This document shows, piece after piece, positions 34 through 49,603 of a DNA stretch of 64,000 bases (position 1 is its first letter; the number at the start of each line of letters is the position of its first letter). Where the stretch lies: assembly GCA_000182565.2 (NCBI GenBank), contig KQ257459.1; one strand, 5' to 3'. Under the pieces are notes generated by a model that searched no databases, was not told the DNA's origin, and worked only from the letters and a program-made list of their open reading frames with translations. Source of the stretch: Spizellomyces punctatus DAOM BR117. Taxonomy: Eukaryota. The translations under genes and the position numbers were made by a program.

Positions 34-3000
34 CGACTGTCAGTCGATGTGGTATGATATACATGGAACCAAGTCGCCTAGGCTGGCGAGACACAATATT
101 TGTGTCCTGGTTAGCTCGAAGTCAGCTGGATGAAGGCCAGAAAAAGGTGATGGTAGCCATGATTGATTGGCTTGTGAGCTCATGCTTGTCCTTCGTGAGA
201 AGGGAATGCGTTGAGCTGTCTGAGACCAGTGATATCAACATGGTCACCTCACTTCTCAATATCTTTGAAAGCTTGCTGGACGACTTTGCACAAGACAAAT
301 CAGCTGAACTTACTACTCGATGCATTCAAGGAGCGTTCATCTTCTCGCTGGTTTGGTCTGTCGGCGCGAGCGTTAATGAAAACGGCAGAGCAAAGTTTTC
401 CCAGCACCTGCGTACACTCTGCAGCGGCGCTTTGCCCAACGGGTTTTCCTTTGATGCCCAATTCCCGGAAGGAGCCGTATATGACTTCGTTTTTGAAAAA
501 ACTGACGGGGGATCTTGGCGACCTTGGGTGGACACAATTCCTACTGACTGGGCTATTCCATCCAAGATGAAAGTGGACAACATCATGGTTCCAACGGTGG
601 ATACAGCGCGGTATGGATTTTTGCTTCAGCTCTTGGTCCGGCATCAGAAGCATGTTCTGTTTGTTGGACCGACAGGAACTGGAAAGTCGATGTACATACG
701 CGACGGTTTAGTCAATCGTCTGCCCAAAGATGTCTACATACCTGCTTTCATAAATTTTTCGGCTCAAACTACAGCGAATCAGACTCAGGAGATAATAGAG
801 TCAAAGCTTGATAAACGCCGCAAAGGAGTTTATGGACCACCTATGGGGAAAAGGTCGGTGATCTTTGTGGATGATCTAAACATGCCGGCCCGTGAAGTGT
901 ATGGAGCGCAGCCGCCGATTGAGTTGTTGAGACAATGGATGGACCATGAAGGTAAGCCTTCAATTCCATTCCCTCTCTTGAATCCGGCATTTATCAATGT
1001 ATTGGCAGGATGGTACAATCAAAATGTTATGACGGTAAGAAGCCCCGATTGTTAAAGCGCCCAGATGGTTTTACTTATGACCCTACCAGAAATTTGAGGC
1101 TATCCAATTTGTTGGTGCCATGGGACCTCCGGGTGGTAAGTGCGATTAAGCCCGGGTTTATTCCTTCGAGGCACCGGGGCTAACTTTCGCTCTCTTGCTT
1201 TCATCAAGGGGGCCGTAACCCTGTGACTTCCCGGGTGCGTTCTGCTTTCACGCTTCTCTTTGCTAGTATCTAGTCTGACAGCATGCACTTTCCAGTTTCT
1301 TCGACACTTCAACACAATTACTATGACCTCTTTCGATGATACGGCCTTGCACCGAATTTTTGAAACCATCTTGGTATGGCATTTGACGTCCAATAATTTC
1401 CCAAAGGAGATTATCGATATGTCGAAGTCAGTTGTCGATGCCACCCGACAGATTTACAGAGGGGCAATGTCAAATCTCCTGCCAACTCCTAAGAAATCTC
1501 ATTACACTTTCAATTTGCGCGACTTTTCCAGGGTTATACAGGGAGTTTTATTAGCTCGTCCGGAAACGGTCAGCAACAAAGAAAAGATGGTCCGACTGTG
1601 GCTACACGAAGCGTATCGTGTTTTTTATGATCGGTTGATTGATGATGATGATAGAAAATGGTTCTTCACCTTCAGCAAAACGGAAATTGTCAAAGCCGCC
1701 TTTAATCTCGAATTCGATAAAGTCTTCCGCATGTACGATTCAAATGCTGATGGAATTGTAGAAATCGATGATCTACGAAGTCTCATTTTTGGAACATACC
1801 TATCTCCTCGGGATGCAGCCGGCAGAGCTTATGATGAAATAACAGATCTCAATGCACTGACCGAATTTATGGAGAAAAGCTTGGGAGAATTTAATCAAGT
1901 TAGCAAGAAGCCCATGGATTTAGGTATCCTAATGCTTCAATCCCTGTTTTTCATATTTTTTGAATCTAACGCAGATTTTCTGGCAGTAATGTTTCGGTTT
2001 GCTATTGAGCACCTCTCCAGAATAAGTCGAGTTCTGCAACAACCACGCGGCAACATGCTGTTGGTGGGTGTTGGTGGGAGTGGTCGACAAAGCTTGACTA
2101 GGATGGCGGCATATCTTGCAGAATATGAGGTGTTTCAAGTGGAGATATCAAGAAATTATAACGCACAGGCGTGGCATGACGATCTAAAGAAGTTGTATAA
2201 GTCGGCAGGCGGTCTTGGCAAGCCTACTGTGTTCTTGTTCAGTGACACGCAATGTCAAGAAGAATCATTCCTAGAGGATATTAACAACATGCTGAATGCT
2301 GGTGAAGTACCAAATCTTTTTGCGGCCGATGAGAAGCAAGAGCTGTTTGAACTGATGAGATCGGATACTCGGAGCGCTGGACGTGCAGCGGATTCGTCAC
2401 CCGCAGCAATGTTCCAGTGGTTTTTGGACCGTTGCCGAGAAAACCTTCACATATGCCTGTGCATGAGTCCCGTCGGTGATGCGTTCCGCAACCGTTTACG
2501 CAAGTTCCCATCCCTGATTAATTGCTGTACAATCGACTGGTTTACCGACTGGCCAGATGACGCACTGATGGCAGTAGCAAAGAAATGCTTGTCGGATATC
2601 GAAATGGAGGACGACGTACGAAAAAATGTGGTAGCAATGTGCAAGCACTTTCACGAGAGCACCCGTGCGCAGTCAACTAGATTCTTGAGCATCAATAAGA
2701 GACATAATTATGTTACCGCCACCTCATTCATCATGCTTATCAAGACGTTTAAAGACCTGCTGGGGTTGAAACGCTCAGAGGTGCTTAAACTTCGAGATCG
2801 ATATGTGAATGGTTTAGAGAAGTTGAGTTTTGCAAAAGCCTCCGTCTCCAAAATGCAGGTGGATCTGGGTGAGCTACAACCGCAGCTCATCAAGACAAAG
2901 GAGGAAACAGATGTTATCATGCGTCAAATTGAGAAAGAATCGGTTGAAGTGGCACAGGTGAAGACGGTAGTTAAGGCGGATGAAGAGGTTGCCACTAAGA

Positions 3001-18818: not shown

Positions 18819-21800
18819 CTATTTTTTGACTTTCAGCTTCAATTTTAGACCCTTCGGAGGCGCTCCGGCGTTTTCCGCCGAAGGCGTGATTTCAGCGGCA
18901 GGTTGGGACTTCGTCTTCTTGCGCTCGGAGGATTCGTTGGCTGCCTTCTTGCGCTTTACAGCTCCGGGCCCGCCCGCACGTTCCTGAGTCTGAAAGAGAA
19001 AGACACTTAGCATGGTTGCTGCGGTCTCATACAAAACCAATCTTGTCTTACCTGTGGTGTTGCTGATGATCCCGAAAGTATTCGTTCCTCCACGGCCGGA
19101 TTGGCTTTCTGCTTTTTGTCCTTAACCTGACCCCCGTCATCCTTTTCTCTCTTGCGCTTTTTGCTGCCTTGATCACCCTGATAGCAGTCATAATCCATCA
19201 GACAAGCACCAGTGCGTAGTGATGGTGAGGCTTCATACTTACTGCTGCGTCCCCAGCGGATATTTGCTTTTCCATCAAAGTTTTCCATTCCTTTTTGAAA
19301 AACCTCTCCAATGCCACCCCGCAATTGTGTCCGTAACTGGTTTTCGCATTATAAAGATAGCAGTTGGCGAACAGTTGCGCCATATCGGCCTCAAATTCAG
19401 AAGTGTTATTGTACACGTGCTGATCCAGCTTTGTTTGCATCGTCTGCAAGTCGATCGGCGTTTTAATCTTGGTGTCATAGTCGGGCAAGACATTCGAATC
19501 CACAGGTTCCAAAAAAATTACGGCACTGCTATGCTCACGGAGCATTTTCAGCATCTTTTGGATGAGTTGTTCTTCTGAGGAGGACAGTCCAGGGTGTGCT
19601 GGGGCCTGTTGGGGACCCGGTGATGAGCTGCGAGAAAGAGGCTTCTGTCCCTCCCGTTTAATTTGTAAGGGGCTACTTTCGCGGCTCCCCCCTGGAAGTG
19701 ACAGAGACTTCCAGTCCTTTTTGAAAGCAGCTTCAAGTCCTTTACCTTGCTCGTACACCCAGTCCCCTTGTCGTAAGATGTTAGCAGCCATCCGAAGAGG
19801 AGGGTTTCGCTGGTGGTTTTGATGTGTAACTTACCAGGTAGATTGAACCTGAAACAATTGTTGAGCATAAGGTTCACATCATCGCGAAATTCATCGCTAG
19901 CTTTGTATTCGCCACTTTCCAGCTTCTTCTGGATAGTACTGAGATCCATTGGCCGCTTGATAATATCAAAATACTGTGGAATGTTTAGCGCGACTGGATC
20001 AACAGGCTGGAGGAATGCCTGCGCATTTGGATGCCGCTGCAGTTTCTTGAGAATTCTCGCGCATGCCTTTCCGTCCGATGTCGACTTCAGTGGAACACCT
20101 CGGTTTTCTTGGTGGCGGGAGTCGGATGTTACTCGGGTGGACGTGTCCACCACATTGACAGAGATTTTGGGGGATTGGGGCCGTCCTTTAGCGACACTAC
20201 TGGGAGCTGACCCAGCAGAGCCTGTTTTACTTCGTCCCCACTCGCGGTCAAAGATAGCTTCGAGATCCTTTCCTTGAATATAGACAGGTTCCCCGGGCCG
20301 ATTGAACGTGAAGCAATTGGTGAATATGAGCCGCACGTCATTTTCAAATTGCTGAAGTGTCTTATAATTTTTATTCCGAAGATTTTTCCGGACGGTGGAC
20401 AGATCCATCGGCTCTTTGATTATTTCAAAGTAGTCAGGATAAAGCGCCCTGGACACAGGTTGTAGAAATGGCCCCGCCGATTGAGTGGCACTTTCCATCC
20501 GCACAAGAGCACGTTCGCACCGTGCCGCATCCGTAGCAGATAACTCGCCCTTACTGCCAGAAGCTACCAACTTCGAATCATTGGTGTCTGCCATTGGTCG
20601 CAGTGCGTCTGGAGCCTGCGAGTTTTCAGGCCAGGTCTTTTCGAAAATATCGAGAAGTGCTTGGCTGTCCTTATGAACTTGAGTGTCAGGTGGATTGAAC
20701 GTGATTGCGTTGTCCAGCATTAATCGGACATCAGCCTGAAACTCCGCGGGTGTAGAATAGGCATTTTGGTCCAGCTTCTTTTTTATGGTCGAAAGATCCA
20801 TGGGCTCCTTTATTATTTCAAAATACGTGGGTATATTCAAGGCAACCGGATCCACCTAAAGGGCAAACGCGGACAGCGACAACTTAGTGATTCCTTTCAG
20901 TACGATCTGATCTTCTGCTTCAATGATACGCTTACCGGTACTCTAAACCAATGAGACAACTCGTGACTTTGTAAGATTCTCCATGTTTTCCTGCATCGTC
21001 GCATATCGTTCAAGGATAAGACTGGCTTCGGAATTGCTGGAGCCGGTAATATTGAGCGGGAAGGCGGTGCCGGTGGAGTTGGCGGAAGCGGTGCTGGTGG
21101 TGACGACGGCCGAGGTATTCTACTCGCTTTGGGTTCCGTCACTACACTTGGAATGCTAGGAATTGTCGCACTCTGCATGTTGTCCTCCTCCGTCGCCCTG
21201 TTCTGCATATCTAATGCCTCTGGTACCACAGACTCTTCGAAGAAACCTTCCAGCTTCTTCGCTTGCCTATGCACATTGCTTTCTTCGAGATTGTATTCAT
21301 AGCAGTTTTTAAAGATCTGGCGGATGTCCATAAACAAGCGGCTTAAGTCGTCCGCGTAAATGCCTGCTTGCAGGTTTCTTCCTGCCGTTTGGAGATCCAT
21401 CGGCTTTTTGATGACTTGATAGTAGTGTGCATGNNNNNNNNNNNNNNNNNNNNNNNNNNNNNNNNNNNNNNNNNNNNNNNNNNNNNNNNNNNNNNNNNNN
21501 NNNNNNNNNNNNNNNNNNNNNNNNNNNNNNNNNATGGATGATTGCGGAGACGTTTTAACATAGCTTCTCCAATACTTTTAAAAACCGGATCAGGCTCTTT
21601 CAAAATTTCCGGAGGCAAAGGGTTTGGTCGCAACAATACTGGCTTCGTGTCCTCTGTTCGTACACGCGGTGGTGTGGGCTTACTCGATACTTTAGGCTTT
21701 GATAACGAGTCTGCGACTATCATATAGTCATTTATCTTGATCTCCAATGTGGATTACCTTCATCAACATACCATTTTTGATTGTAACCTTCTTCACCGCA

Positions 21801-24800: not shown

Positions 24801-26630
24801 TGGGTGACGAGTGCTCGACACAGCAGCCGCATGGTCTCATACGTTTGATCAATTATATTATCTTCCAGCAGAAGGTGAGAACTAAAATCCGGTGAATTCG
24901 CCAAATGTTGCCCGCGGATTAGCTGATGGAAGCCTTAAGAATCTAGCACACAGAGTTTGTACCTAAACACAGCCAGAGTTGCACCGACAGCCGCAGGGTT
25001 GTAGGTGTCTTCAAGAAAAACTTGCTTATATGAACCAAAAGGGAACGGTACTCCCAGATACTGTTCAAAAAAAGCTAACGCCTATCGAACCATAGAGTGA
25101 ATCAAAAGCGACAAGACTTTGTTGAGTGCTAACAACAAACCTGGGCTACAAAACTGGTCGTATACTCCAACTGCTCACGTCTCCCTGGCAAGCAAAAGGC
25201 GTACCCTCCATCGCTAATATCATGGTCCCGGATAAAAGCTTCGGCCCCTGTCGTATCGACTTCGTCTTGTTCGTCTGCGTTCATGTCCTCCGGGACAGTC
25301 GCTTTCATCCACTGGGGAATGGGTATACTGTCGAAGGGTCCAATCGCAAGCATTATACTTGCAGGACAAACTGGATTGCTTAGCACGTAACTGGATATCT
25401 TTTTCGTGGCATCCACAGGATGTAGCACTTGCTCATCCAACTCCCCGCTACAAAGAACGAGCATCTCTCTGTCACCCAGTCTCTGACCCGTCTCTTCATC
25501 AATTTCGTCGCCGACTCCTCCAGGACCAAAAGTTTCTGGCAACGCGTCCCGCAGGGTCCGCGGTGTCACACACTGTATATCCCACGTACAACGTTCTTGA
25601 TATCGGTCAATACAAGGTATCCATAAGCGAGCACTTGAGGTTTGGTTATTCGAGTATAATTGAGGGTATCTCTGTGTAACGCGTTTAAGAATGGTGCAAA
25701 TATAAAAAACAAGCGAAATCAACGGTGTTGTCAAAATTCCTTACGTCTGGCGTTACAAGTGCATCAGGAAGAACAAAGTGAAGCCCTGATCTGGGCTCAG
25801 TCAATATGAAGGTTACTTGAACCTGAATAGTGGCAAAACTGGGGGCAGGCGGAGGACGTCCTGTGCTTTGTTCTACATCTACAAATCGGAAATGTTGAGG
25901 AGCCATCCAACGGGGTGACAGCACCGTAGAATCTTACCAGAAGGTTGCGTTGATAGCTCAGATGTGCCGTTAGTTTGGGTGGTCTTCGTCCATATGTAAT
26001 GTCAGCTTACGAGAAGGACCCAGAATCTTGTCATTGGGAACAATGCAAATACCTGGATAATGGGCACCTGTTCTGGAATATCTATCACCAGTTCGCCTTC
26101 ATCAGATTCTTGGAGTGCATAGGTATAGTGTTGCCTGTATTCTGGATGATGGTACGCAGTTTTTCGGGACGAAGGTGGAACGACTGGAGTGAGGGGATCA
26201 TCGTAAACGTATTTTGTCTCAACTTCATTCACAAGGACTTTCAGGATCTCTAAAATTCCAGGTACAAAATCGATAAGAACAGGCAAATAGATGCATACTG
26301 ACGAGGAAGTCATCGACATACTCGACTGTCTACAGTTCAGTCTAATTTGAGTGAAGTCGGCAGTCAGGGGTGTTATGTAGAGGATGACGCAGCCCTGTTT
26401 AGATTGCGACCATCAGCGGGATTCCCATTGCAAGAAGCTGAGTAAAGCTCATGTCAAGCATCTGGAGAGCTTCACCGGGATACCCACTTTTACGGTGCGT
26501 CTGTGGGNNNNNNNNNNNNNNNNNNNNNNNNNNNNNNNNNNNNNNNNNNNNNNNNNNNNNNNNNNNNNNNNNNNNNNNNNNNNNNNNNNNNNNNNNNNNN
26601 NNNNNNNGACAACGCTCTGGTGACTCGTAA
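18819..26630 (-). CDS. TAF2: TFIID subunit TAF2 (inactive M1 aminopeptidase fold) with five C-terminal bromodomains; first exon not located
   Basis: ARLWIPCID...CTW, LVTQWFG, FADQWIYGSGCPRF...FNRKK, GPFTIRIHEPGG, LLKFNDN; spliced in frame to five PMDL/PIDL...N-x(3)-[YF]N bromodomains. Confidence 0.92.
21434..21533. other. Assembly gap (100 N) inside TAF2 bromodomain 1
   Basis: Run of exactly 100 n. Confidence 0.99.
26508..26607. other. Assembly gap (100 N) inside an N-terminal TAF2 exon
   Basis: Run of exactly 100 n. Confidence 0.99.
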
Positions 26631-43655: not shown

Positions 43656-45822
43656 ATGGCCCAATTTGACGCTAGCAATCACCTTGCTGACGCAGGGAAC
43701 ATGGCTTCACAAAGCACGTCGTCAACACAAACATCTCACAGCGGCGGGGCCTCGGCGGACACTGTTTCAACGACGACACAGACTACAAGCCATGTCCAGC
43801 ACTCTGTAGCAACGGGCACCGTTCACACGGACACGACTGAAAGTGGAACGGATCCATTCACTCGTGCAGTCAGAGATGCGGGCGTCATGGTGGGAGCTGT
43901 AGAGGGACTTGGTTTGGCAGTGTCTGGTGGGTCCCCCGAAGTTGCGTCTGTTGTGGATTCAACAAGCAACAAGCCCACACACGGGAAGCAGCAAAGTTTA
44001 AGTCTCCCAGCGGTTCCACTTGCTCAGTACGATGAAGATATCGATTCCCCCAATGCATCGTCCATATTTCCCAACCCTCATGCCGGCAAACCGGACAACA
44101 CACCAACTGCTGCAGCAAACTTCCAACTCCCCGATTATGTCCGCTTAATTCTGACCGCTCAAGTGTACGACGTCGCCATGGAATCCCCACTTCAAAAGGC
44201 ACACAACCTATCAACGCGCATTGGAAATACGGTGCTTCTTAAGCGAGAAGATCTGCAACCTGTATTTTCCTTCAAGTTGCGGGGGGCGTATAATCGCATG
44301 CATCAGCTCTCAGAGGAGGAAAAACAGAAGGGAGTCATCGCATGCTCAGCTGGCAACCATGCACAAGGTGTTGCTCTAGCAGCTCAAAAGATGGGTATTC
44401 AGGCAACTATCGTTATGCCAACAGTAACTCCTCCGATCAAGTGGAGAAATGTCCAAAGACTTGGTGCGCAAGTGGTATTGCACGGGAACGACTTTGATGA
44501 AGCAAAAGCAGAATGTGCGAGGCTTGCCAAGGTACTGTGGATTATTCATTTTGTAGAATTCCACATTTTCTCAAGTCCCAAGTGACTAGGAACGCGGATA
44601 TATCAATATACCCCCATACGATGATCCATACGTCATTGCAGGGCAGGGAACGGTCGGTTTGGAAATAATGAGGCAATCTGGACCAAAAATTGACGCGATA
44701 TTTATTTGTATCGGTGGTGGAGGACTGGCAGCCGGTGTTGCATCTTACGTTAAAAGGATCTTTCCCCATGTGAAGATCATAGGGGTTGAGACGCATGATG
44801 CAGCGGCGATGACACGTTCCTTGAAGGCTGGCGAACGTGTTATGCTATCGCAGGTCGGCTTATTCGCGGATGGTGCGGCCGTGAAAGTCGTTGGGGAAGA
44901 AACGTTCCGGGTCTGCAAGGAGTTGGTGGACGAAACTGTACTGGTCTCTACGGATGAAATCTGCGCAGGAATCAAGGATGTCTTTGAGGACACCAGGAGT
45001 GTTGTAGAACCGGCTGGAGCACTCGGTCTGGCGGGGGTGAAGAAATATGTCCAGGAGAAAGGATGCAAGGGCATGACATTTGTTGCCGTGACCAGTGGGG
45101 CGAATATGAATTTTGATCGACTGAGATTCGTCGCAGAACGAGCGGAGCTTGGTGAGAACAGGGAAGCTTTGATTACGGTTATTATTCCAGAGCGACCTGG
45201 CAGGTATGACTACGGATTTCCGGTTCGTGTTAGCTATAAGTCGGTCGTATCTTACGATCTTTGCTGTCAAAGCTTCATGGATCTGTACAAAGCAATCTCA
45301 CCACGAGCTGTATCCGAGTTCTCCTACCGGTATGGCGATCCCTCGGAAGCACACATTTTCATGTCGTTTGTGGTAAACGACAGGGAAAAGGAATTGGGAG
45401 AGATTTTCAAAGAGCTGGATAGCAAAGGGATGCGTGCCATGGATGCTAGTCGGAATGAGATGGCCAAAGCCCACGCTCGATACCTGGTTGGGGGAAGAAA
45501 AGAGGTCGCGAATGAGAGACTTTTCCGATTTTCCTTCCCCGAGCGACCGGGCGCTCTCAGCCATTTCCTGTCTACGCTTCGCCATCCTCTATGGAACGGT
45601 TAGTGAAAGTCAAAGTCGCTCGTTTGATGTTTGTGTTCTGATCTGTCAATTGTAGTATCCTTATTCCATTACCGCAATTATGGCGGCGACGTCTCGAGGG
45701 TATTGGCAGGCGTCCAAGTGCCACCAGAGACAACACACGAGTTTGAAAAGTTTTTAAAGGACCTGAGATATCCATATGTAGAAGAGACAGACAATTTGGT
45801 ATATCAGCAATTCTTGCGATAG
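43656..45822 (+). CDS. ILV1: Biosynthetic threonine dehydratase (ILV1/IlvA) with ACT-like regulatory domains
   Basis: [19 protein letters not shown] (PLP lysine), [38 protein letters not shown] twice, [11 protein letters not shown]. Confidence 0.97.
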
Positions 45823-45955
45823 TTTTTTTGCGAGCACTGTAGAATCATATTTTGTATAACTTATTCAAAAAACCCTTGGTATCACGTGTGTGTAGCCCCA
45901 ATGTTAGCGCGCAATTCAAACCATCTTGCACCCATCTGCAGCGTTTTGCATCATC

Positions 45956-47400
45956 ATGAGGTACATTAAGACTCCTGTTAGACTCTGTCGCAGTCAGTCG
46001 GGACTCTGGCTCGCACGGTTCTACACGACCGAGAGCAATCCCACCAAGAAGGTTGTTGTAATTGGAGGAACAGGGTTGGTATTTTGGAAGACTCGAGTGG
46101 TTCCTTGGACTGATATATATAGTGTTTACATGCTTTTGTTTCAGGTTTATAGGCCCATATATTGCCAGATCTGTTCTTCAAGACTCACCTTCTGCCACCG
46201 TTCAACTGGCATGCCGCTCGCCGCGCGATCATCCTCAAGTTTCTAGCAGCCACGGTGGTCGGCTCCTACCTTCGATCGCCGCAGATGTTACCGATTCCCA
46301 GTCCGTTCGTGAAGCATGTCGCGGAGCATCAGCTGTCGTCAACTTGGTGGGAATCATGCACGAGCGGAGACCACGGTACACATTTGATGCAGTGCAGAAC
46401 GAAGGGGCGCGGGTGATTGCTCAGGCAGCCAAAGATAGTGGAGCCAAGCTGGTGCACGTGAGTGCCATCGGAGCTGATGTGGAGTCGGAGGTACCTTATG
46501 CAAGGACGAAAGGTGCGTCTTTGTGCGGTCAAAAACACCCACGATTGGATTAAGAATGGATACGATATTGGTTCTTAGGACTAGGAGAACAGGCGGTTCT
46601 TGATGTTCACCCCGACGCGTCGGTCGTCCGTCCTAGCCTAGTATTCGGAAAAGAAGATGATTTCTTCAACGTAAGAAAAGATGTGCTGCAAACACTTCTT
46701 TACCCGCGCAATCCGCGAAGTCTACATCGGTTGCATCTCACCATAGACTGGTGTCAAAACCTAGCGCTTTGCCAAACTCGCAAGAATACTTCCTTTTGTT
46801 CCTGTTTTTGGAGGGGGACATACAAAATTTCAACCAGGTATGCTTCTAATGTTCGGAGAGATATGTTATGATCTAGCCCTGCTGATTCCAACTACCCAGT
46901 CTACGTGGAAGACCTCGCCCGCGCCATAACACAGTGCATTGCGACTGACAAGGTCAACGGGAAAATAGTTGAAGTAGGCGGACCACATGGTAACGTGTCT
47001 TTTCATGGTAACGACAAGACGGTAAAGCTGAGCGTAACGTTCAGTGTATGAATACAGGGACCTTATGCAGCTTATGTTGGATCAGGCTGGGATACGGCGC
47101 CCGATCATATCCGTTCCATGGGTACGTGTGCCAAACGTTGAGTTTTTACTGATGCGTTTATCGACATAACCTCCCAATATTAGATCGTCGGTTATATCCA
47201 AGGATTTTTTCTGGAGCGCCTACCAGAGAACTTGTTCACTCTCACCCGTGATCAGGTCAAGCTTTTGCAGCGAGACAACGTGGTGTCAGGAAGTCATATG
47301 ACGCTCGCGGATCTTGGCGTGTCACCGACTCCGGCGGAAGATGTACTGCATAGATATCTGAGGCGTACGCGTTCCGGAACCGGTGTACGTCCACCTACTC
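45956..47400 (+). CDS. NDUFA9/Coq11-like atypical SDR with mitochondrial presequence; N-terminal module of a predicted fusion with pantothenate synthetase
   Basis: Presequence-like MRYIKTPVRLCRSQSGLWLARFYTT; GGTGFIG; VVNLVGI; HVSAIGA; YARTK; RPSLVFGKEDDFFNRFA; FQPVYVEDLA; seven exons traced. Confidence 0.9.
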
Positions 47401-47458
47401 GTGAGTTTGTCTCTGCTATGCACCGTAACACTCTACCTGCTGATACATGGTCCTCCAG

Positions 47459-48399
47459 CCGCAAGCACCCACTCGCGCTCATACTTCACCAGCACCCGTA
47501 AACCGCGCATCGTTGAGACGATTGCCGAATATCGCGCTCTACGGCATCAATGGCAGCGACAAGATCTCAGTGTTGGCTTTGTGCCCACCATGGGAGCACT
47601 CCATGACGGTCACGTAAGCCTAGCCCGCACTGCAAGGAAAACCTGCGATATCGTTGTTGTGAGTATATTCGTTAACCCAGCTCAGTTTGCTCCCCACGAG
47701 GATCTGGGGAAGTACCCACGCACCATGGAGCAAGATGTTGCAATGTTGACGGAGGTCGGTGTGGACGTAATCTTTCTTCCCAACGTCAAGGAAATGTATC
47801 CCGCTGGCATCGTTTTGGACGTCAAGGATCAACAAGGCACATTTGTTGAAGTGAAGGGAAAATCCCACCAAATGGAGGGGTCTATACGTCCGCACTTTTT
47901 TCGGGGAGTCGCAACCGTTGTAACCAAGTTTCTGAACATTATGCAACCCACAAAAGCATTCTTCGGGCAAAAGGACGCACAGCAATGTGCGGTTGTACGC
48001 ACGATGGTTCGCGACTTATTCATTCCCACCGAAATAGTAGTCGGTGAGACCGTGCGGGAGCCAGATGGGTTGGCGATGAGTAGCAGGAACAGATATTTGT
48101 CGCCAGAAGAGAGAGCTATTGCCCCAGTGCTGTACAAGGCTTTATCTGCCGGCCAAAGAGCCTTCAATGAAGGAACGGCAAAGAGCCGCGACGAGCTGAT
48201 ACAAATTGCAAAAGCTATCATTGACGTACAACATGGTGCGGAATTGGAGTATTTAAGTGTTGCAAATCCCTTTTCTTTGGCGGAGGAGGAGCAAGTTGGG
48301 TCCGAGGGTGCGATATTTTCCGGCGCTGTTAGGGTGGGTAAAACGAGGATCATTGACAACGTCCTTTTGGGTATATCAACCGAGACTTGGGTCAAGTGA
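47459..48399 (+). CDS. PAN6: Pantoate-beta-alanine ligase (pantothenate synthetase, PAN6/PanC), last exon of the predicted fusion gene
   Basis: GFVPTMGALHDGH, FVNPAQF, RPHFFRGVATVV, FGQKDAQQ, REPDGLAMSSRN, TRIIDNV; no in-frame ATG upstream of the conserved core. Confidence 0.95.
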
Positions 48400-48697
48400 A
48401 AGCGAGCTCTGTTTTTCCTCTGACGCAGATTTCTTTGAGGTACTCTTTGTATGATGCTCAATGGTGCCTGTCATGTCAAGGACACCTGCAATAACTCAAG
48501 TGTGTACTGCCTTCTATAACTGAGAGCAGATCCACTATTTAGAACCTCGTTCCCCCTAAGGGAGGAGCCCAGGCTTATGCATCGCAGATTGTTTCTATTG
48601 TACGCTAGCTTTCCATTTGATCACGAAACCAGTTTCATAAGATATAAGATATATTCGCCCAGCTCAATTCCACTTTAAGGACAGTTATACAATTACA

Positions 48698-49603
<906 letters not shown>

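What the first reader, a model, noticed from the sequence alone, without database searches (positions are those of the whole stretch)
45956..48399. NDUFA9/Coq11-like SDR spliced in frame to a start-less pantothenate synthetase: candidate mitochondrial tandem protein
Seen: the PanC frame has no ATG before its HxGH (HIGH-type) motif. A 58-nt intron (GTGAGT at 47401, GCTGAT branch-like at 47439, CAG at 47458) joins the last SDR exon to PanC exactly in frame (C+CC = Pro). The result is presequence-SDR-linker-PanC as one protein. Known: PanC/Pan6 is normally stand-alone, and the NDUFA9-related Coq11 is fused to Coq10 in some smut fungi. I know of no described SDR-PanC fusion. Inference: this links a respiratory/CoQ-associated SDR to CoA-precursor synthesis and would place pantothenate ligation in mitochondria.
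Basis: partly seen in the sequence, partly recalled or inferred. Interest (0 to 1): 0.85.

Follow-up and report, generated by a model that had tools for sequence, protein, structure and literature searches.

The report
Chytrid SDR–pantothenate synthetase fusion gene
In the soil chytrid Spizellomyces punctatus, and in the related genus Gaertneriomyces, the enzyme that makes vitamin B5 has lost its own start codon and is made as the tail of a mitochondrial NDUFA9-like reductase; the single precursor is probably cut in two after import.

Summary
The PanC frame has no ATG before its HxGH motif. A 58-nt GTGAGT…CTGAT…CAG intron (47401-47458) joins the last SDR exon to PanC in frame. My eight-exon model gives 658 aa, letter for letter the public S. 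punctatus protein XP_016607058.1, so the gene model is already annotated.

The fusion looks real. A Gaertneriomyces sp. protein of 664 aa has the same architecture (56% identity over 643 residues, across the junction). The G. semiglobifer PanC model starts inside the SDR C-terminal motif. PanC models of the sister family Powellomycetaceae stand alone, with their own presequence-like N-termini.

The linker is the most basic, acid-free stretch of both fusion proteins. It keeps an Arg-Ser-Tyr motif, the motif at which MPP cuts yeast Arg5,6 internally. My best reading is a mitochondrial composite precursor, split after import; the cleavage is inferred.

Splicing at 47400/47459 was not seen directly, because the one RNA run was 3'-biased and too thin. 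Coq11 orthology was not tested. No paper on this fusion was found. Moderate interest.

The parts
45956..46074 (+). Exon 1: start codon, presequence-like N-terminus (residues 1-25 = 45956-46030) and the start of the GGTGFIG nucleotide-binding motif
   Evidence: Residues 1-25 are acid-free with net charge +5 and contain an R-F-Y-T motif at residue 21. The only in-frame ATG after the stop at 45905-45907 is this one.
46075..46144 (+). Intron 1 (70 nt, GTTGGT...CAG)
   Evidence: Removing it restores the GGTGFIG motif.
46145..46512 (+). Exon 2: Rossmann core of the SDR, with Ser146 (46461-46463), Tyr158 (46497-46499) and Lys162 (46509-46511)
   Evidence: Pfam NAD_binding_10 and 3Beta_HSD match this exon alone. 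S146, Y158 and K162 are invariant in 10 of 10 aligned sequences.
46513..46578 (+). Intron 2 (66 nt, GTGCGT...TAG)
46579..46670 (+). Exon 3 of the SDR
46671..46764 (+). Intron 3 (94 nt, GTAAGA...TAG)
46765..46837 (+). Exon 4 of the SDR
46838..46899 (+). Intron 4 (62 nt, GTATGC...CTGAT...CAG)
46900..46989 (+). Exon 5 of the SDR
46990..47044 (+). Intron 5 (55 nt, GTAACG...CAG)
47045..47121 (+). Exon 6 of the SDR
47122..47183 (+). Intron 6 (62 nt, GTACGT...CTGAT...TAG)
47184..47400 (+). Exon 7: C-terminal part of the SDR fold and the first half of the linker. It has no stop codon. It contains the internal ATG at 47298 (Met312).
   Evidence: Models of bacterial NDUFA9-family proteins align structurally through residue about 344. 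The ortholog HMM aligns to residue 336-337.
47401..47458 (+). Intron 7 (58 nt, phase 1): GTGAGT donor, CTGAT at 47440-47444, CAG acceptor. If retained, the SDR frame stops at 47499-47501, giving 378 aa.
   Evidence: The spliced product is identical to P0001, and the junction region aligns with Gaertneriomyces proteins. No spliced read was obtained.
47459..47514 (+). Second half of the linker, an internal presequence-like stretch with Arg352-Ser353-Tyr354 at 47476-47484
   Evidence: Residues 327-364 form the longest acid-free run of the protein. The window 330-354 has net charge +6, the highest in the protein. RSY or R-x-Y-S is also present in Gaertneriomyces and in stand-alone chytrid PanC N-termini.
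47506..48363 (+). Pantoate-beta-alanine ligase (PanC) domain, residues 362-647. The first in-frame ATG is 47590 (Met390). HDGH lies at 47602-47613.
   Evidence: Pfam PF02569, 346.9 bits, profile positions 1-267 of 268. TIGR00018 panC equivalog, 326 bits against a cut-off of 212.75. PDB PanC chains score up to 266.7 bits.
48397..48399 (+). Stop codon of the fused ORF
48200..48650 (+). The only 3'-end-like pile of + strand RNA reads downstream of the gene's start
   Evidence: Run X5. Depth is 5.7-19.8 over 48200-48583 and 9.0 over 48584-48650. It is 0.8 or less in every bin from 45896 to 48199.

Best explanation
This is one real gene of eight exons in Spizellomyces punctatus. It encodes a 658-residue precursor made of four parts:

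- an N-terminal mitochondrial presequence;
- an NDUFA9-family atypical SDR, about residues 26-340, with intact GxxGxxG and Ser-Tyr-Lys residues;
- a basic, acid-free, Ser/Thr/Pro-rich linker of about 25-38 residues;
- a complete pantothenate synthetase (PanC, residues 362-647).

PanC has no start codon of its own. It can only be translated through the 47400/47459 splice from the SDR's last exon.

The fusion arose in the family Spizellomycetaceae. The SDR lost its roughly 50-residue C-terminal tail and its stop codon. PanC lost its start codon but kept the end of its own presequence, which now forms the linker.

Inferred, not shown: the precursor is imported by the N-terminal presequence, and the mitochondrial processing peptidase cuts it twice. 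One cut removes the presequence. The other is at the internal Arg-Ser-Tyr site and releases separate SDR and PanC enzymes in the matrix, as in yeast Arg5,6.
For: **Gene model**
- Seven GT..AG introns of 55-94 nt give one ORF.
- The ORF is identical to XP_016607058.1 / KNC99018.1.

**PanC cannot start on its own**
- No in-frame ATG lies between the stop at 47359-47361 and the Met inside the PTMGALHDGH motif.
- The SDR frame has no stop before the donor site.

**Conservation**
- Gaertneriomyces sp. JEL0708 protein P0493 (664 aa) carries SDR Pfam domains plus PF02569.
- It aligns with P0001 over 28-655, with 361 of 643 residues identical, straight across the junction.
- The G. semiglobifer PanC model P0401 (361 aa) begins with the SDR C-terminal motif. 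Its residues 1-40 match stand-alone SDR P0121 at 311-348 (21 of 41 identical, E 1e-5). Its residues 6-352 match P0001 at 312-655 (209 of 355 identical).
- Both genera are Spizellomycetaceae.

**Stand-alone forms elsewhere**
- PanC models of Powellomyces, Geranomyces and Thoreauomyces (Powellomycetaceae) have their own long S/T/R-rich N-termini and no SDR part.
- SDR orthologs in other fungi are 363-388 aa and carry an extra C-terminal tail.
- That tail is missing in both fused proteins: the ortholog HMM aligns only to position about 327 of 378.

**No second PanC found**
- None from S. punctatus among the 120 listed hits of 171-546 aa.
- None besides P0001 among the 120 listed hits of 547-2000 aa.

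**Linker**
- It is the most positively charged 25-residue window in both fusions: +6 at 330-354 in P0001 and +7 at 332-356 in P0493.
- It is acid-free for 38 and 41 residues respectively, and it carries RSY.
- The N-terminus is acid-free with net charge +5.

**Precedent**
- MPP cuts Arg5,6 at an internal RSY motif inside a presequence-like stretch.
- Similar sites are predicted in Atp25, Etp1 and Rsm22-Cox11 (PMC8734313, abstract and passages read).

**RNA**
- In 3'-biased run X5, + strand depth is 0.8 or less in every bin from 45896 to 48199, then rises to 5.7-19.8 after PanC.
- No poly(A) loose end is listed between the upstream gene's sites (45888, 45901) and the end of PanC.
Against: **No direct RNA proof.** No read or contig across 47400/47459 was obtained. 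One search lists no joints, and depth over the junction was 0.18 or less. About 6% of one run was read, and 8 loose ends were not shown.

**All homologues are predicted gene models.**
- Gene callers can merge neighbouring genes. Several other chytrid PanC models are visibly merged with downstream genes.
- The JGI model for G. semiglobifer starts at an internal Met rather than at the SDR start.

**Possible internal start.** A Met lies near the SDR C-terminus in both fused lineages: Met312 in S. punctatus, and about five residues further upstream in Gaertneriomyces. A shorter PanC isoform from an internal promoter is therefore not excluded.

**Targeting and cleavage rest on composition.** No targeting or cleavage predictor was available. 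Presequence and cleavage site are judged from composition and motif only. In S. punctatus the residue after RSY is Phe, not the Ser or Ala seen in relatives.

**No genomic DNA of relatives.** Synteny and conservation of the intron could not be checked.
Confidence: 0.78

Rival explanations
1. Two overlapping genes rather than one. PanC is made from its own transcript, which starts inside the SDR gene. It uses ATG 47298 (Met312) and the same 58-nt intron. The SDR is made separately, for example from an intron-retaining mRNA that stops at 47499-47501 (378 aa). On this reading the 658-aa model is a merger of the two.
For: - ATG 47298 is in the SDR frame and would read into PanC through the intron.
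- The JGI model of G. semiglobifer PanC starts at an internal Met in the same region.
- A Met occurs within a few residues of this spot in both fused lineages. The 9 stand-alone orthologs aligned have none there.
- Intron retention gives a plausible stop 33 codons further on.
Against: - The two Met residues are not in the same alignment column.
- Residues 312-344 belong to the SDR fold (structural alignment to residue 344). They begin with acidic residues, which is unlike a presequence.
- An independent annotation of Gaertneriomyces sp. JEL0708 gives the full 664-aa fusion.
- Run X5 shows no 3'-end pile or listed poly(A) end for an SDR-only mRNA near 47500-47800.
- The retained-intron tail gains nothing against the ortholog HMM: 505.2 bits against 504.6 bits for the spliced form.
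- Even on this reading, PanC still depends on SDR exon 7 and the splice.
Confidence: 0.12
2. An uncleaved bifunctional enzyme in which the two halves work together. For example, the NAD(P)H-binding SDR might reduce ketopantoate to pantoate for the adjoining PanC, as in the widespread PanE-PanC fusions.
For: - PanC fused to a ketopantoate reductase (PF02558/PF08546) recurs many times among the long PanC proteins.
- The SDR keeps GxxGxxG and the Ser146, Tyr158 and Lys162 residues, so it could be catalytically active.
- The Atlas model of the whole protein has mean pLDDT 0.81.
Against: - The same SDR is a widespread stand-alone protein in fungi, and in bacteria at 41-48% identity. Nothing links that family to pantothenate.
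- The fusion is confined to one chytrid family among the models examined.
- The linker looks like a leftover presequence with an MPP-type motif, not a structured interface.
- The whole-protein pTM of 0.51 suggests no fixed arrangement of the two domains.
- I could not check whether S. punctatus has a normal PanE/Pan5, because no genome is held.
Confidence: 0.06
3. PanC here is a decaying pseudogene that lost its start, and the in-frame join is a coincidence exploited by gene callers.
For: There is no ATG of its own. 54 alternative in-frame GT..AG joins exist.
Against: - The PanC frame is open for 312 codons.
- It matches the whole Pfam profile (positions 1-267 of 268) and passes the TIGR00018 equivalog cut-off.
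- It is 75% identical to Powellomyces PanC.
- The same join is kept in a genus only 56% identical overall.
- No other PanC of this species was found.
Confidence: 0.02

Closest known systems
Mitochondrial composite ('tandem') precursors cut internally by MPP: Arg5,6 (S. cerevisiae) and arg-6 (N. crassa), Atp25, S. pombe Etp1 (named a Cox15-Yah1 fusion from recall; the passages read do not say so) and Rsm22-Cox11 (PMC8734313, abstract and passages read)
   Same: - One N-terminal presequence serves two unrelated mature domains.
- The domains are joined by a presequence-like basic linker.
- The linker carries an Arg-Ser-Tyr motif, the motif shown to be the internal MPP site of Arg5,6.
   Different: - Cleavage and import are not shown here.
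- The partners (an NDUFA9-family SDR and PanC) are new.
- Stand-alone relatives with matching presequence ends show that the linker derives from the downstream partner's own presequence.
- The fusion is confined to one chytrid family rather than being fungus-wide.
Other PanC fusions: PanC-(d)CMP kinase in cyanobacteria, and PanB-PanC, PanC-PanE and PanB-PanC-PanE in bacteria, protists and some animals (Pfam architectures)
   Same: PanC is one module of a longer polypeptide.
   Different: - In those, the partner is another pantothenate-pathway enzyme or CMP kinase.
- Here it is an NDUFA9-family SDR at the N-terminal side.
- Of the 120 long PanC proteins listed, only P0001 has SDR domains.
Coq11 (YLR290C) and the Coq11-Coq10 fusions of five fungal genomes (PMC6056717, passages read; PMC11495197, passages read)
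   Same: A mitochondrial atypical SDR related to NDUFA9 is fused to another mitochondrial protein in a few fungi.
   Different: - The partner is PanC, not Coq10.
- Orthology of this SDR to yeast Coq11 was not tested here, because no Coq11 sequence was obtained from a tool.
NDUFA9 / NUEM, the 39-40 kDa accessory subunit of complex I
   Same: Same fold and family. PDB NDUFA9 chains match residues 25-344 at 67-129 bits.
   Different: - The SDR scores much higher against a 330-aa chain deposited as 'NAD-dependent epimerase/dehydratase' (9g83_P, 187.6 bits).
- It is also closer to bacterial 'complex I NDUFA9 subunit family' clusters (TM 0.92).
- Fungal NUEM chains score only 96-101 bits. It is therefore a paralogue of the complex I subunit, not the subunit itself.

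Membership tests
Pantoate-beta-alanine ligase (PanC; Pfam PF02569, NCBIfam TIGR00018) | Full-length match to the family profile above the curated cut-off | tested here: met
   PF02569: 346.9 bits, profile positions 1-267 of 268. TIGR00018 equivalog: 326 bits against a cut-off of 212.75.
Pantoate-beta-alanine ligase (PanC; Pfam PF02569, NCBIfam TIGR00018) | HxGH nucleotidyl-transferase motif in the PTMG..H.GH context (the motif definition is recalled) | tested here: met
   PTMGALHDGH at residues 388-397 (47584-47613). The same block is present in the chytrid PanC sequences listed.
Pantoate-beta-alanine ligase (PanC; Pfam PF02569, NCBIfam TIGR00018) | Ligase activity (pantoate + beta-alanine + ATP) | not testable with these tools
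   Needs an enzyme assay or complementation of a panC mutant.
NDUFA9-family atypical SDR (extended Rossmann fold) | Glycine-rich GxxGxxG motif and an NAD(P)-binding Rossmann domain | tested here: met
   GGTGFIG at residues 37-43. Pfam Epimerase, 3Beta_HSD, RmlD_sub_bind and NAD_binding_10 are above their cut-offs. G38 and G40 are invariant in the alignment.
NDUFA9-family atypical SDR (extended Rossmann fold) | Closest relatives are proteins named as the NDUFA9 family | tested here: met
   Atlas: the 10 structural rows shown are bacterial clusters with TM 0.91-0.92; seven are named complex I NDUFA9 subunit family and the other three carry related NADH-dehydrogenase or steroid-dehydrogenase names. 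PDB NDUFA9 chains score 67-129 bits. These names are automatic.
Canonical complex I subunit NDUFA9/NUEM | Orthology to the subunit found in solved complex I structures of fungi | tested here: not met
   Yarrowia NUEM (6gcs_E) scores 100.8 bits and chain 7zm7_E 96.3 bits. The 330-aa 9g83_P scores 187.6 bits, and stand-alone fungal orthologs score 284-447 bits. I made no tree.
Coq11 (YLR290C) orthogroup | Reciprocal best match or tree placement with yeast Coq11; association with the CoQ synthome | not tested
The primary paper PMC4367260 is not held.
Mitochondrial composite precursor cut by MPP (Arg5,6 type) | Strong N-terminal presequence | tested here: inconclusive
   Residues 1-25 are acid-free with net charge +5 and an R-F-Y-T motif. 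The Gaertneriomyces N-terminus is acid-free for 43 residues. No targeting predictor was available.
Mitochondrial composite precursor cut by MPP (Arg5,6 type) | Internal presequence-like stretch with an MPP motif exactly at the domain junction | tested here: met
   The linker is the most basic window and the longest acid-free run in P0001, and the most basic window in P0493. RSY lies at 352-354 in P0001 and at 344-346 in P0493. RSY is the Arg5,6 site. This test rests on composition and motif only.
Mitochondrial composite precursor cut by MPP (Arg5,6 type) | Import into mitochondria and cleavage into two polypeptides | not testable with these tools
   Needs tagging with a western blot, in-vitro import with MPP, or N-terminal proteomics.

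The most novel reading that the evidence does not exclude
The fusion is a Rosetta stone: the NDUFA9/Coq11-like SDR works in the same pathway as PanC. It might be a non-orthologous ketopantoate reductase, or might otherwise link the family to pantothenate, CoA or acyl-carrier metabolism in mitochondria. That would give a first biochemical handle on an SDR family whose function is still unknown, in yeast Coq11 and in the alphaproteobacterial NDUFA9 homologues. It would also place the last step of vitamin B5 synthesis in the mitochondrial matrix of chytrids.
Probability: 0.07. Interest if true: 0.8.

Novelty: new member of a known kind. Interest (0 to 1): 0.42.

Why it matters
**A young composite precursor with its intermediates still visible.** If the precursor is imported and cut as proposed, this is a clean, recent example of how such precursors arise.
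- Stand-alone forms survive in the sister family.
- The internal cleavage site can be traced to the downstream partner's own presequence.
- S. punctatus can be transformed (recalled, not checked here), so the idea can be tested directly.

**Location of vitamin B5 synthesis.** It suggests that chytrids carry out pantothenate ligation in mitochondria. PanC is nuclear/cytosolic in Toxoplasma, and in plants only the ketopantoate step is described as mitochondrial (PMC8764084, passages read).

**A practical annotation problem.** The fused record's name, 'pantoate-beta-alanine ligase', now sits on SDR-only proteins of other fungi. Many chytrid PanC models are also truncated or merged.

**Limits.** The gene model itself is already public and the fusion is lineage-restricted, so the interest is moderate.

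Tried and rejected
**RNA support for the junction**
- The look-up of sequencing runs listed no RNA holder. Only a same-species raw-read RNA run (X5) and small runs X1-X3 were offered.
- Laid, X1-X3 proved to be low-depth DNA, contiguous across introns.
- X5 is 3'-biased: 243 reads laid and about 6% of the run read. No joints were listed, so the 47400/47459 splice stays untested.

**Whole genome.** None is held. A separate PAN6, NDUFA9, Pan5 or PanB could not be sought in DNA.

**Search for other fusions**
- 1 of 120 listed long PanC proteins has SDR domains.
- 1 of 120 listed SDR hits has PF02569.
- best of 150 listed is 416.7 bits, an SDR-only protein. Of the rows whose best stretch starts at 299-348, I fetched 5. 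They have S/T/R-rich extensions, not SDR. P0376 was not inspected.
- These searches cannot exclude further fusions. P0493 was hidden in the 90% cluster of the shorter P0401 and came to light only. P0001 itself is absent from the list.

**Thoreauomyces.** Its PanC N-terminus first looked like the SDR C-terminus. BLAST aligns it to the linker instead, so I dropped the idea.

**Vestige of the lost SDR tail.** I tested this with an HMM of 9 stand-alone orthologs. Both the spliced form (504.6 bits) and the intron-retained form (505.2 bits) stop aligning at profile position about 327 of 378. There is no discrimination between them.

**Metagenome scan.** Of 156 matching stretches, 1 locus was confirmed (L001). 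It is an AT-rich stand-alone PanC with its own ATG and does not help.

**Structure prediction.** Alignment A2 put SDR-only rows on the PanC columns, so I did not send it. I ran no structure prediction and no complex prediction, and I make no binding claim.

**Literature**
- Searches found no paper on the fusion or its accession numbers.
- One search found nothing on PDB entry 9g83.
Full report
**What is in the sequence**

The window comes from Spizellomyces punctatus DAOM BR117. The PanC ORF is 100% identical to part of a 658-aa NCBI protein of that strain (accessions XP_016607058.1, KNC99018.1 and A0A0L0HE29).

Reading 45500-48900 and the stop-to-stop frames, I rebuilt the gene as eight exons:
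- 45956-46074
- 46145-46512
- 46579-46670
- 46765-46837
- 46900-46989
- 47045-47121
- 47184-47400
- 47459-48399

They are separated by seven GT..AG introns of 55-94 nt. The product has 658 residues and equals the public protein letter for letter.

- GTGAGT at 47401, GCTGAT at 47439-47444, and CAG ending at 47458.
- A phase-1 join, C|CC, giving Pro346.
- No ATG in the PanC frame between the stop at 47359-47361 and 47590, which is the Met inside PTMGALHDGH.

The other downstream ATGs (47418 and 47446) are in other frames and run into stops. PanC can therefore be translated only through a splice from the SDR frame.

The in-frame join by itself is not remarkable. 54 GT..AG pairs around the junction give a stop-free join. 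Only one of them has a GTGAGT donor together with a size like the gene's other introns.

**What the two halves are**

Residues 362-647 match the whole Pantoate_ligase profile (346.9 bits). They pass the NCBIfam panC equivalog cut-off (326 against 212.75 bits). Solved PanC structures match at up to 266.7 bits.

Residues about 26-344 are an extended Rossmann SDR. It has GGTGFIG and invariant Ser146, Tyr158 and Lys162. Its nearest relatives are:
- stand-alone fungal proteins of 363-388 aa: Quaeritorhiza 67% identical, then Basidiobolus, Paraglomus, Glomeromycota and Cladochytrium;
- bacterial proteins at 41-48% identity.

The protein atlas places the SDR half with bacterial 'complex I NDUFA9 subunit family' clusters (TM 0.91-0.92). 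In the PDB its best SDR match is a 330-aa chain, 9g83_P (187.6 bits). Genuine complex I NDUFA9/NUEM chains score 67-129 bits, and Yarrowia NUEM scores 100.8.

It is thus an NDUFA9-family paralogue, not the complex I subunit. Whether it is the orthologue of yeast Coq11 was not tested.

**Is the fusion real?**

The direct test, spliced RNA reads, failed for lack of data.
- The one RNA run available (X5) is 3'-biased. With about 6% of it read, it gave no listed joints.
- It does show that + strand reads pile up only beyond PanC: 5.7-19.8 deep over 48200-48583, against 0.8 or less in every bin from 45896 to 48199.
- The only poly(A) loose ends listed belong to the upstream gene (45888 and 45901).
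- So there is no sign of an SDR-only mRNA ending before PanC. This is weak evidence.

The strong evidence is comparative.
- The PanC model of Gaertneriomyces semiglobifer (P0401, 361 aa) begins with the conserved C-terminal motif of the SDR family. Its residues 1-40 align with residues 311-348 of the stand-alone Quaeritorhiza SDR (21 of 41 identical, E 1e-5). Its residues 6-352 align without a break with residues 312-655 of the S. punctatus protein (59% identical).
- The 90% cluster of that model also holds a 664-aa protein of Gaertneriomyces sp. JEL0708 (P0493).
- P0493 has SDR domains plus PF02569. It aligns with the S. punctatus protein over 643 residues at 56% identity, across the junction.
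- Three annotations in two genera of Spizellomycetaceae therefore join the same SDR to PanC in frame, with linkers of nearly equal length.

By contrast, PanC models of Powellomyces, Geranomyces and Thoreauomyces (Powellomycetaceae) have their own long Ser/Thr/Arg-rich N-termini and no SDR part. PanC models of other chytrids do too.

No second PanC of S. punctatus appeared among 120 listed hits of 171-546 aa or 120 listed hits of 547-2000 aa.

**How it probably arose and works**

Stand-alone SDR orthologs carry a conserved C-terminal tail of about 50 residues. Both fused proteins lack it: an HMM of nine orthologs aligns only to position about 327 of 378.

Stand-alone chytrid PanC proteins carry N-terminal extensions that end in R-x-Y-S type motifs just before the conserved core. 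The fused proteins keep that end piece as their linker, with RSY followed by FTS in S. punctatus and by STS in Gaertneriomyces.

The linker has these properties:
- It is the most positively charged 25-residue window of both proteins (+6 and +7).
- It lies in an acid-free run of 38 and 41 residues respectively.
- The N-terminus is likewise acid-free and basic.

This is the anatomy of the known mitochondrial composite precursors.
- Yeast Arg5,6 is imported by its N-terminal presequence.
- MPP then cuts it at an internal RSY motif inside a presequence-like stretch.
- Similar sites are predicted in Atp25, Etp1 and Rsm22-Cox11 (PMC8734313, abstract and passages read).

I therefore propose import by the N-terminal presequence and a second MPP cut at Arg352-Ser353-Tyr354 (47476-47484), which would release separate SDR and PanC enzymes. 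Import and cleavage are inferred; nothing here shows them.

**Rivals**

1. *An internal promoter* could give a PanC-only mRNA that uses Met312 (47298) and the same intron, with the SDR ended by intron retention at 47499-47501.
   - For: the JGI model, and a Met near this spot in both fused lineages.
   - Against: the Met residues are not in the same column; residues 312-344 belong to the SDR fold; an independent annotation gives the full fusion.
2. *An uncleaved bifunctional enzyme*, for example with the SDR acting as a ketopantoate reductase.
   - For: the many PanE-PanC fusions.
   - Against: the wide stand-alone distribution of the SDR and the presequence-like linker.
3. *A pseudogene.* This is very unlikely given the intact, conserved PanC.

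**Comparison with what is known, and novelty**

PanC fusions with CMP kinase, PanB and PanE are common. Coq11-Coq10 fusions are in print (PMC6056717).

I found no paper on an SDR-PanC fusion or on these accession numbers. Supplements were closed and could hold such a mention. The gene model itself has been public for years under a PanC name.

I file the finding as a new member of a known kind, the mitochondrial composite precursors. It has two points of interest:
- The origin of the internal site from the partner's presequence is visible.
- The last step of pantothenate synthesis would lie in the mitochondria. Tagged PanC of Toxoplasma is nuclear, and in plants ketopantoate synthesis is described as mitochondrial (PMC8764084, passages read).

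**Verdict**

- Observation: confirmed.
- Interpretation: supported, with two corrections. The model is already annotated, and mitochondrial targeting of PanC seems to predate the fusion.
- Interest: moderate (0.42).

Noticed in passing
P0254 (Dimargaris cristalligena, 262 aa) and P0263 (Sorochytrium milnesiophthora, 325 aa): Both are named 'pantoate-beta-alanine ligase' in NCBI. Their best-scoring stretch matches the SDR half of the query (residues 19-247 and 32-310). This is probably name propagation from the fused S. punctatus record.
   Followed up: partly
Chytrid PanC models: Many models of 266-271 aa (Powellomyces, Geranomyces, Borealophlyctis, Rhizophlyctis and others) begin at the Met inside the PTMG motif, so they are N-terminally truncated. 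Several long models (Thoreauomyces 877 aa, Siphonaria 646 aa, B. salamandrivorans 730 aa, Entophlyctis 741 aa) are PanC merged with an unrelated downstream gene.
   Followed up: partly
window 45896-46183: Run X5 has a small pile of reads in the opposite orientation (depth 1.59, 1.26, 0.51) over the first exon and intron of the gene, where + strand depth is near zero. They may be 5'-end fragments of the same mRNA or an antisense transcript. This is unexplained.
   Followed up: no
window 45820-45956: The upstream threonine dehydratase gene (+ strand; Pfam PALP and Thr_dehydrat_C) has poly(A) loose ends at 45888 and 45901. That is only 55-68 nt before the ATG of the fusion gene, so the promoter and 5' UTR region is very short.
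   Followed up: partly
Alignment A1, stand-alone SDR orthologs: Early-diverging fungal orthologs share a conserved C-terminal tail that starts with a T-x-N-K-R-T-H-R-like motif, followed by about 35 charged residues. The tail is absent from the bacterial-length proteins and from both fused proteins. Its function is unknown.
   Followed up: partly
window 47298 (Met312) and Gaertneriomyces P0401 residue 1 / P0493 residue ~307: Both fused lineages have a Met within a few residues of the start of the SDR C-terminal motif. The nine stand-alone orthologs aligned have none there. This may be chance, or a hint of an alternative internal start.
   Followed up: partly
window 21434-21533 and 26508-26607: Two runs of 100 N (assembly gaps) lie in the window.
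   Followed up: no
window 48913-49381, - strand: A convergent ubiquitin-conjugating enzyme gene (Pfam UQ_con on two exons). Its 3'-end read pile begins at about 48584-48650, so the two genes' 3' ends lie close together or overlap.
   Followed up: no
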